This document shows positions 43,457 through 43,625 of a stretch of DNA of 64,000 bases, one piece after another. The notes under the pieces are model-generated. The model did not search any database. It was not told the DNA's origin and was given only the letters and a program-made list of their open reading frames with translations. How positions within the stretch are numbered: the first letter of the stretch is position 1; every line of letters begins with the position of its first letter. Source of the stretch: Chloroflexota bacterium (GTDB taxonomy: Bacteria > Chloroflexota > UBA11872); the NCBI GenBank assembly GCA_965198185.1, contig CBDAOU010000001.1:370212-434211 (forward strand), in the 5' to 3' direction. A program made the position numbers and the translations under genes.

Positions 43457-43625
43457 TGTATGTTGCGAGTCCCGCGGATTGTCCGCGGGGAAGCACCGGG
43501 CCGGGACAGACCGCAGGTCCCAAGAGACCGTCGGTACGTCCCGGCCCGCGCTGGTCCAGAGGCACCGTTGCCACGCGAGCCCGCATCCAAGGTTGGGCGG
43601 GAGGCCAGCGGCGGAGGGTACCGAA
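43457..43625 (+). ncRNA. Candidate IS110 bridge RNA
   Basis: 5' hairpin 43471-43489; lobe 1 closed by 43498-43507/43538-43547; lobe 2 closed by 43549-43556/43603-43610. Confidence 0.55.

What the first reader, a model, noticed from the sequence alone, without database searches (positions are those of the whole stretch)
43457..43625. Candidate bridge RNA with a 5' hairpin and two loop-containing lobes
Seen: a 7-bp hairpin, a lobe closed by a perfect 10-bp stem and a lobe closed by an 8-bp stem, all upstream of the transposase. Lobe 2 contains CAAG (43588-43591), complementary to the donor CTTG. Known: this matches the target-loop/donor-loop layout of IS110 bridge RNAs. Caveat: guide matches are poor. 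Lobe 1 has AGACCGC and GGTAC where CCCGCCCCT and GTAG would be expected, and ACCGTTGCC matches the right end at only 5 of 9 positions. This could be decay or off-target insertion.
Basis: partly seen in the sequence, partly recalled or inferred. Interest (0 to 1): 0.55.

Follow-up and report, generated by a model that had tools for sequence, protein, structure and literature searches.

The report
Dead bridge RNA of decayed IS110
This stretch is the wrecked remnant of a bridge RNA, the guide RNA that IS110-type jumping genes use to choose their insertion site. Intact sister copies in the same genome show what it has lost, so it is an ordinary relic of a known system.

Summary
They are the conserved scaffold of an IS110-group bridge RNA.

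- **Location.** The region 43457-43625 is the left non-coding end of an IS110 element (43457-44548). The element sits exactly at the CT core of a REP-like hairpin, and empty sites elsewhere in the genome read CCCGCCC-CT-AC.
- **Intact sister copies.** Eight sister copies exist in this genome, four of them with an intact 312-aa recombinase. Their left ends are 209-210 nt against 169 nt here.
- **What this copy lost.** Small deletions removed the left target guide (TCCGCCCC), the right target guide (the GTAG region), half of the inner donor-loop hairpin and the -35 box. The right end has mutated and the recombinase is frameshifted.
- **Structure in relatives.** Across 25 non-redundant homologues from Chloroflexota the three-part structure is kept, with compensatory changes. 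A covariance model scores intact copies about 213 bits and this copy 105 bits.
- **Guide matching.** The guides track their own targets and ends; no permutation out of 20,000 reached the observed match.

The poor guide matches come from decay, not from off-target insertion. The kind is already known (IS621-type bridge RNAs), so interest is low.

The parts
43434..43456 (+). REP-like hairpin (GGGCGGGTC-TGA-GACCCGCCC) whose 3' side, CCCGCCC plus the CT core, is the left half of the insertion target
   Evidence: The identical 23-mer occurs at many sites in the genome. Empty sites read ...GACCCGCCC-CT-AC.... Of 43 CCGCCCCTAC sites, 35 lie at the base of such a hairpin.
43457..44548 (+). Decayed IS110-group insertion sequence: body 43457-44546 plus the second copy of the CT core at 44547-44548
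   Evidence: The junctions were compared with empty sites. Eight paralogues in the genome are 74-85% identical. Against copy A there are 22 indels, all of them deletions in this copy.
43459..43464 (+). TATGTT, the -10-like half of the promoter that would form across the RE-LE junction of the circular form
   Evidence: In intact copy A the junction reads TTGACG-N18-TATGTT. This was read by eye and transcription was not shown.
43471..43489 (+). 5' stem-loop of the bridge RNA (7 bp), intact. It carries a G-C pair where sister copies have U-A or U-G.
   Evidence: Helix 2 of the consensus has 4 of 6 pairs with compensatory changes.
43498..43547 (+). Relic of the target-binding loop. The closing stem (43498-43512 with 43533-43547) and the inner hairpin (43516-43529) are kept. 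The left target guide is deleted at about 43514 and the right target guide at about 43531-43537.
   Evidence: Alignment with intact copies and covariance-model alignment gaps at model positions 58-65 and 83-91.
43549..43610 (+). Relic of the donor-binding loop. The outer stem is kept (43549-43556 with 43603-43610), as are the left donor guide ACCGTTGCC (43564-43572) and the CAAG of the right donor guide (43588-43591). The 5' half of the inner hairpin (GGGCCGCCGT), the CCC of the 4-bp GCCC/GGGC stem, and TTG are deleted.
43626..44529 (+). Recombinase pseudogene (DEDD RuvC-like domain plus Tnp domain). It starts at GTG and is split over three frames. The stretch that holds the first catalytic Asp in intact copies is out of frame, and 21 nt have been lost in frame.
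   Evidence: Pfam PF01548 and PF02371 hit different frames. ORF list, indel map, and the intact 312-aa paralogues.
44530..44548 (+). Right-end relic. The TTG of the -35 box is deleted and the left-donor sequence reads AACGCGG-CT instead of ACCGTTG-CT.
44549..44629 (+). Right flank. ACCCCGC... continues the interrupted REP, followed by a second repeated palindromic element.
   Evidence: Empty sites and many genomic matches to query positions 1175-1250.

Best explanation
The region 43457-43625 is the pseudogene of an IS621-type bridge RNA, encoded in the left end of a dead IS110-group insertion sequence.

**How the intact family would work (inferred from IS621).** The element excises as a circle. 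The RE-LE junction then forms a sigma-70-type promoter that transcribes an RNA of about 200 nt. This RNA has a 5' stem-loop, a target-binding loop and a donor-binding loop.
- The target-binding loop has a 5' strand that repeats the target top strand (CCGCCC plus CT) and a 3' strand complementary to CT plus AC....
- The donor-binding loop has strands that match the element's own right end (ACCGTTG plus core) and left end (CT plus TG).

Bound to the DEDD recombinase, the RNA pairs with both DNAs and directs scarless insertion at the CT core of REP-like hairpins.

**State of this copy (shown).** The scaffold stems survive. Both target guides, half of the inner donor hairpin, the -35 box, the right-end donor sequence and the recombinase reading frame are destroyed.

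**Consequence (inferred).** This copy can neither guide nor be mobilised.
For: **Element identity.** Pfam DEDD_Tnp_IS110 and Transposase_20 hit downstream on the same strand. The intact paralogue P0001 matches NF033542, 'IS110 family RNA-guided transposase', at 192 bits against a cut-off of 140. It aligns over its full length to the IS621 (8wt6, E 3.6e-39) and ISCro4 (9t56) recombinases.

**Precise insertion.** The insertion is at a CT core; four empty sites read GACCCGCCC-CT-AC.

**What was lost.** Intact paralogues carry TCCGCCCCT and GGTAG in lobe 1, exactly where this copy has deletions of 8 nt and 7+1 nt. This copy also lacks GGGCCGCCGT in lobe 2.

**Conserved structure.** In 25 non-redundant homologues, 98.4% of cells are paired against 38-46% when partners are slid. 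Ten pairs show compensatory change, and the covariation score is 0.139 against 0.071 in shuffles, reached by 0 of 500.

**Covariance model.** Intact copies score 203-219 bits and this copy 104.8. Homologues not used in the model, whose recombinases are 46-56% identical, score 58-89 bits.

**Guide covariation.** Over 19 distinct guide pairs, non-core matches average 5.53 of 7 (left) and 4.79 of 7 (right) with the element's own target, against 3.70 and 2.23 with other elements' targets. No permutation out of 20,000 reached this. The donor guide ACCGTTGCC / ACAGTTGCC / ACAGGTGCC tracks the right end ACCGTTGCT / ACAGTTGCT / ACAGGTGCT.

**Agreement with the published system.** The layout and strand rules agree with Durrant et al. 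2024 (PMC11208160).
Against: - No RNA or activity data exist for any member of this subfamily; transcription, recombinase binding and guidance are inferred from IS621.
- The right donor guide match is short (CAAG plus 0-3 nt).
- The last base of the left donor guide mismatches the core T in all copies but one (8 of 9 positions).
- Most pairs of the long lobe-1 stem never vary, so they say nothing either way.
- The sequences are related, so the shuffle statistics overstate independence.
- Some of the 1-nt deletions could be assembly errors.
Confidence: 0.92

Rival explanations
1. A guide-less bridge RNA retained for a function. The scaffold stems would still bind recombinase made by the intact copies, so the RNA would act as a decoy or brake on transposition.
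For: The protein-contacting stems and the 5' hairpin survive, and the hairpin has a compensatory G-C pair. Deletions are denser in the non-coding end than in the ORF: 9 of 22 events in 18% of the length, binomial P about 0.01.
Against: - The -35 box of the junction promoter is gone and the copy cannot circularise, so no promoter is evident.
- Another decayed copy (D) lost stem segments instead, so there is no common pattern.
- The inner donor hairpin and the GCCC stem are broken.
- This is a single case, not found at the orthologous locus in 9 congeners.
Confidence: 0.03
2. A still functional bridge RNA with unusual, shortened guides, so that the poor matches reflect an off-target or re-programmed insertion.
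For: The RNA folds stably and keeps ACCGTTGCC and CAAG.
Against: - The insertion site is the canonical target of the family.
- All 25 homologues, including outgroups, have the segments missing here, so these are derived deletions.
- The internal loop of lobe 1 is reduced to 2-3 nt per side.
- The element's own right end no longer matches the donor guide, and the recombinase is frameshifted.
Confidence: 0.02
3. The apparent decay is an assembly artefact of a long-read metagenome assembly, and the real copy is intact.
Against: - Deletions of 8, 7, 10, 21, 5 and 3 nt, and several of 2 nt, are not typical consensus errors.
- The copy also differs by about 9% substitutions from every sister copy.
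- The sister copies are read as intact in the same assembly.
Confidence: 0.02
4. The structure is only a G+C-rich leader or translational control element of the transposase, or a DNA-level recognition hairpin, and not a guide RNA.
For: The predicted long-range pairing of the 5' end with the GGAGGGUAC Shine-Dalgarno region is invariant. Older literature proposed that the non-coding ends regulate expression (cited in PMC11208160).
Against: A leader would not be expected to carry loop sequences that repeat the flanking target and the element's own ends and change with them. The long-range pairing has no covariation support.
Confidence: 0.01

Closest known systems
IS621 bridge RNA and recombinase of E. 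coli (Durrant et al. 2024, PMC11208160; Hiraizumi et al. 2024, PMC11208158; PDB 8wt6)
   Same: - The RNA is encoded in the left end, upstream of a DEDD/Tnp recombinase.
- It has a 5' stem-loop, then a variable target-binding loop, then a more conserved donor-binding loop.
- The left guides have the sense of the top strand and the right guides are complementary to it, and the CT core is included in the left and right target guides and the right donor guide.
- The right-guide pairing is about 4 bp.
- The target is the end of a REP-type palindrome with the same CT-AC (IS621 target ATCAGGC-CT-AC, here CCCGCCC-CT-AC).
- A promoter is split across the RE-LE junction.
   Different: - The host phylum is different (Chloroflexota MAGs).
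- The RNA is about 205-210 nt rather than 177 nt.
- The recombinase match is distant (phmmer E 3.6e-39, 138.5 bits, over residues 6-308).
- The last base of the left donor guide does not match the core T.
- The window's copy is a pseudogene lacking both target guides.
ISCro4 bridge recombinase (PDB 9t56)
   Same: It is the best PDB match of the intact paralogue, aligned over residues 6-308 (E 2.1e-39).
   Different: Only the protein was compared. The RNA of ISCro4 was not available here.
IS1111-group bridge RNA / seekRNA encoded in the right end (group described in PMC11208160, section 'Diverse IS110s encode bridge RNAs')
   Same: Same recombinase superfamily and the same two-loop guide logic.
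   Different: In that group the RNA lies 3' of the gene and the ends have long subterminal inverted repeats. Here the right end is 25 nt and the RNA is 5' of the gene.
REP-targeting IS110 elements such as ISPpu10 (bioRxiv 10.64898/2026.03.19.712850; abstract only)
   Same: Insertion into many copies of one conserved intergenic palindromic repeat.
   Different: I did not read that paper beyond its abstract, and no sequence comparison was made.

Membership tests
IS110-group (IS621-type) bridge RNA | Encoded in the left non-coding end, on the same strand as and upstream of a DEDD RuvC-like plus Tnp-domain recombinase | tested here: met
   PF01548 and PF02371 hit downstream in the window. The intact paralogue matches NF033542 at 192 bits, both Pfam domains, and PDB IS621 and ISCro4.
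IS110-group (IS621-type) bridge RNA | [quoted passage not shown] | tested here: met
   This is met for the family (consensus and covariation; model hits on sequences not used to build it). In the window's copy the stems are present but both internal loops have collapsed.
IS110-group (IS621-type) bridge RNA | The first internal loop carries left and right target guides that match the flanking target, core included, and covary with it | tested here: not met
   Not met by the window's copy: both guides are deleted. It is met by its intact homologues: 7-9 of 9 positions for the left guide in most elements, and 0 of 20,000 permutations reach the observed match.
IS110-group (IS621-type) bridge RNA | The second internal loop carries guides that match the element's own right and left ends around the core | tested here: inconclusive
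   In the window's copy ACCGTTGCC and CAAG are present, but the right end now reads AACGCGG-CT and the inner hairpin is half deleted. In homologues the left donor guide matches 8 of 9 positions and follows three right-end variants; the right donor guide matches only 4-7 of 9.
IS110-group (IS621-type) bridge RNA | Scarless insertion with one core dinucleotide on each side of the element | tested here: met
   CT lies at 43455-43456 and 44547-44548, and empty sites carry a single CT.
IS110-group (IS621-type) bridge RNA | A promoter is rebuilt across the RE-LE junction of the circular form | tested here: inconclusive
   TTGACG-N18-TATGTT is present in intact copy A, and TTGAC-like boxes are present in five of the seven other right ends printed (L022, L027, L031, L045, L048), with weaker ones (CTGCC, TTCAC) in L040 and L041. 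This is sequence reading only. The window's copy has lost the TTG.
IS110-group (IS621-type) bridge RNA | The RNA is expressed, binds the recombinase and is required for recombination | not testable with these tools
   This needs small-RNA sequencing, binding assays and recombination assays.
IS1111-group right-end bridge RNA / seekRNA | A long right non-coding end encoding the RNA | tested here: not met
   The right end after the stop codon is 25 nt in intact copies. The covariance model hits only the left end.

The most novel reading that the evidence does not exclude
The deletions removed both target guides and the inner donor hairpin but spared the recombinase-binding stems. On the most novel reading this is not chance: the locus would survive as a guide-less decoy RNA that soaks up recombinase from the four intact copies and damps transposition.
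Probability: 0.03. Interest if true: 0.55.

Novelty: new member of a known kind. Interest (0 to 1): 0.2.

Why it matters
For the window itself it matters little. It explains a strongly structured G+C-rich intergenic stretch as the relic of a known mobile-element RNA, and it shows that the open frames drawn across it are not genes.

The family around it has modest value. This Chloroflexota IS110 lineage offers a natural series of at least ten re-programmed target guides on an almost invariant scaffold, together with REP-like targets and reconstructable empty sites. That could serve as comparative material for bridge-recombinase engineering and for annotating such RNAs, which Rfam 15 does not yet recognise.

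Tried and rejected
- **Rfam 15** at permissive thresholds, on the window's copy and on an intact copy: only sub-threshold chance hits (miRNA precursors, sX15 on the opposite strand). No bridge-RNA family matched.
- **Chance hairpins in G+C-rich DNA:** rejected by the fold z-score and by covariation and slid-partner controls.
- **Guide RNA in the 3' end:** rejected, because the right end is 25 nt.
- **Off-target insertion:** rejected, because the site equals the family's consensus target and the empty sites.
- **Ancient shared insertion:** rejected for the genomes searched. Nine congeners have about 110 nt between tRNA-Val and the downstream gene, and no model hit.
- **RNAalifold's long-range helix** between the 5' end and the Shine-Dalgarno region, and its 2-bp helix inside the donor loop: left out of the model, because they never vary or would pair the guides with each other.
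- A first right-end regular expression matched the donor guide inside the left end and gave a nonsense alignment (corrected). A first structure string had the wrong length. One anchor (L048) was misplaced and corrected by hand.
- **Not done.** I did not compare the model with the IS621 RNA itself, because no IS621 locus could be fetched without typing sequence from memory.

Full report
**Observation.**
- The 5' hairpin has 7 bp, 43471-43477 with 43483-43489.
- Lobe 1 is closed by a perfect 10-bp stem, GGGCCGGGAC with GTCCCGGCCC, inside 43498-43547.
- Lobe 2 is closed by an 8-bp stem, 43549-43556 with 43603-43610.
- CAAG is at 43588-43591 and ACCGTTGCC at 43564-43572.

The 169 nt fold to -91.2 kcal/mol, 3.9 standard deviations below dinucleotide shuffles, and none of 200 shuffles folds as well.

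**What the element is.**
Downstream on the same strand lie the two IS110 transposase domains. PF01548 and PF02371 hit different reading frames, so the gene is broken.

The genome holding the window (3.25 Mb, two contigs) has eight further copies at 74-85% DNA identity. Four of them (A, C, E, G) carry an intact 312-aa recombinase. Copy A's protein:
- matches NCBIfam NF033542, 'IS110 family RNA-guided transposase', at 192 bits against a cut-off of 140;
- matches both Pfam domains;
- aligns over residues 6-308 with the solved IS621 and ISCro4 recombinases, E about 1e-39.

**Boundaries and target.**
All copies begin TGTATGTTGC immediately after ...GCCCCT. They end ...ACCGTTG-CT, usually followed by AC.

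The 23 nt to the left of the window's copy (43434-43456) form a hairpin that recurs at many sites in the genome. Four uninterrupted sites read GACCCGCCC-CT-AC(G/C)CC. The window's junctions read CCCGCCC-CT|TGTATG and GCGG-CT|ACCCCGC. The element therefore spans 43457-44548 and sits scarlessly at a CT core in a REP-like palindrome.

The genome has 43 CCGCCCCTAC sites, and 35 of them lie at the base of such a hairpin.

In nine congeneric genomes the orthologous interval between tRNA-Val(GAC) and the downstream gene is about 110 nt in eight. In the ninth, G007, it carries another copy of the repeat seen on the window's right flank. None has a match to the RNA model. The 1.4-kb block of repeats plus IS is thus specific to this lineage among the genomes searched.

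**What the window's copy has lost.**
The left non-coding end is 209-210 nt in the intact copies and 169 nt here. Against copy A there are 22 indels, and every one is a deletion in the window's copy. Nine fall in the non-coding left end:

| Deleted segment | Size | Role in intact copies |
|---|---|---|
| TCCGCCCC | 8 nt | left target guide |
| GCGTGGT plus one T | 7+1 nt | removes the GTAG region, the right target guide |
| GGGCCGCCGT | 10 nt | 5' half of the inner hairpin of lobe 2 |
| CCC | 3 nt | part of the short GCCC/GGGC stem |
| TTG, GTG, CCGCC, one C | 3, 3, 5, 1 nt | other positions |

These are derived losses, because all 25 homologues, including distant ones, keep the segments.

The right end has lost the TTG of a TTGAC box and now reads AACGCGG-CT where the family has ACCGTTG-CT.

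The recombinase gene has ten deletions. They put the region of the first catalytic Asp out of frame, remove 21 nt in frame, and split the rest over two more frames. Even if every 1-nt deletion were an assembly error, the 2-nt deletions would still break the frame.

**Conservation of the structure.**
Recombinase searches gave homologous elements in Chloroflexota metagenome-assembled genomes, with 46-90% protein identity. I aligned 25 non-redundant left ends. RNAalifold returned this consensus:
- a 5' hairpin;
- lobe 1, with a 14-bp closing stem, a large internal loop and a 4-bp terminal hairpin;
- lobe 2, with a 9-bp outer stem, a 4-bp GCCC/GGGC stem, a large internal loop and a 7-bp inner hairpin.

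On this structure 98.4% of cells form standard pairs, against 38-46% when the 3' partners are slid by 1-3 columns. Ten pairs show changes on both sides. The covariation score is 0.139 against 0.071 in shuffles, and no shuffle out of 500 reaches it.

The compensatory changes are concentrated in the 5' hairpin and the outer stem of lobe 2. Most of the long lobe-1 stem never varies, so it is uninformative.

A covariance model built from the alignment gave these scores:

| Sequence | Bits |
|---|---|
| Intact copies in this genome | 203-219 |
| Decayed copy D | 152 |
| The window's copy (43458-43625, + strand) | 104.8 |
| Seven elements from another family-level group, not used in the model (recombinase 46-56% identical) | 58-89 |
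| A gammaproteobacterial element | 28.9 |

The window's copy is the only plus-strand hit in the 64 kb. Its model alignment has gaps exactly at the two guide segments and at the inner donor hairpin.

**Guides.**
In Durrant et al. 2024 (PMC11208160) the rules are as follows. [quoted passage not shown] The donor loop does the same with the element's joined ends. The core is included in all four pairings.

Applying these rules with fixed anchors gave the following.
- **Left target guide.** The nine bases after CAG(A/C)CCG equal the nine bases left of the element at 7-9 positions in most of the 36 elements scored, and this holds across ten different guide classes. Examples: TCACACCT with TCACACCT, TCACTCCT with TCACTCCT, AGACCCCT with AGACCCCT, TTTTCCCT with TTTTCCCT.
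- **Right target guide.** The reverse complement of the nine bases before the 3' strand of the closing stem equals CT plus the right flank. Example: CTCTCCCAC with CTCTCCCAC.
- **Statistics.** Over 19 distinct guide pairs, non-core matches with the element's own target average 5.53 of 7 (left) and 4.79 of 7 (right). With other elements' targets they average 3.70 and 2.23. No permutation out of 20,000 reaches the observed sums, also after collapsing to ten classes.
- **Left donor guide.** ACCGTTGCC, ACAGTTGCC and ACAGGTGCC each accompany the right ends ACCGTTGCT, ACAGTTGCT and ACAGGTGCT.
- **Right donor guide.** It matches only through CAAG plus up to three further bases. This is in the range of the 4-bp right-target-guide pairing reported for IS621.

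The elements are related, so these tests overstate independence. Even so, ten target classes on a nearly constant scaffold are hard to explain in any other way.

**Mechanism.**
*Shown here:* homology, structure conservation, guide-target and guide-donor correspondence, precise insertion at a CT core, and the decay of this copy.

*Inferred from IS621:* the circular form joins the right and left ends. In copy A this gives TTGACG-N18-TATGTT, which would drive transcription of the RNA. The RNA binds the recombinase and pairs with target and donor to direct strand exchange at CT.

*Inferred for the window's copy:* it has no target guides, a broken donor loop, no -35 box, a right end that no longer matches the donor guide of the intact copies, and no recombinase. 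It is therefore inactive both in cis and as a substrate in trans.

**Comparison and membership.**
The family meets every sequence-level criterion of IS621-type bridge RNAs that I could test. Expression and activity cannot be tested here. The window's copy fails the target-guide criterion because of deletion, so it is best filed as a bridge-RNA pseudogene. The IS1111-type arrangement is excluded by the 25-nt right end. Rfam 15 has no family that recognises either the relic or an intact copy.

**Rivals.**
- **Decoy function for the guide-less scaffold.** This is not excluded. Deletions are denser in the non-coding end than expected, 9 of 22 events in 18% of the length, P about 0.01, and the stems survive. 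However, there is no promoter, another decayed copy lost stems instead, and this is a single case.
- **Assembly artefact.** Unlikely, given deletions of 8-21 nt and about 9% substitutions.
- **A plain leader or chance structure.** Excluded by the guide correspondence.

**Verdict.**
The kind of system is well known, the subfamily is a new member from Chloroflexota, and the copy in the window is dead. Interest is low.

Noticed in passing
window 44562-44629 (also G000:C2:294190-294350, C1:269610-269770, C2:342050-342236, C2:515797-515960): A second repeated element follows the REP hairpin at a fixed distance. It is a palindrome GGATTCCGGCG...CGCCGGAATGACGG followed by GGGTTACGC, and it has more than 25 partial copies in the genome. 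Hairpin and palindrome together look like one composite MITE-like unit.
   Followed up: partly
window 43241-44715, compared with L066-L074: In eight of the nine congeners the interval between tRNA-Val(GAC) and the downstream PLP-enzyme-like gene is about 110 nt. Here it is about 1.47 kb, made of repeats plus the IS. One congener (G007, L069) carries a different insertion of the same repeat family at this spot, so the interval is a hotspot.
   Followed up: partly
G000:C2:1674989-1676188 (copy E, L002/L059): The right junction of copy E reads ACCGTTG-CC|AC instead of -CT|AC. Its right-hand core therefore equals the left donor guide at 9 of 9 positions, while the left-hand core is CT.
   Followed up: no
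G000:C1:322979-323176 and G000:C2:1867244-1867331: Two further matches to the bridge-RNA model. The first scores 50.9 bits and lies next to a more distant IS110 relative. The second is an 88-nt fragment at 33 bits that looks like a solo left-end remnant beside a REP hairpin.
   Followed up: no
L040:1260-1300, L043, L044, L041, L042: Some homologues have a left end 17-26 nt longer, in which the terminal TGT(A/C)TAT... motif appears twice before the 5' hairpin (for example CT|TGTCTATGGCGAGGCTTGTATGTTCC). This looks like a duplicated donor end.
   Followed up: no
window 43457-44548 compared with copy A: All 22 indels are deletions in the window's copy, with no insertions. This is a strong deletional bias, and the deletions are about four times denser in the structured non-coding end than in the ORF.
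   Followed up: partly
window 43471-43489: The 5' hairpin of the dead copy has a G-C pair where sister copies have U-A, U-G or a U-U mismatch. This is a compensatory change, which suggests the lineage was under structural selection before it decayed.
   Followed up: no
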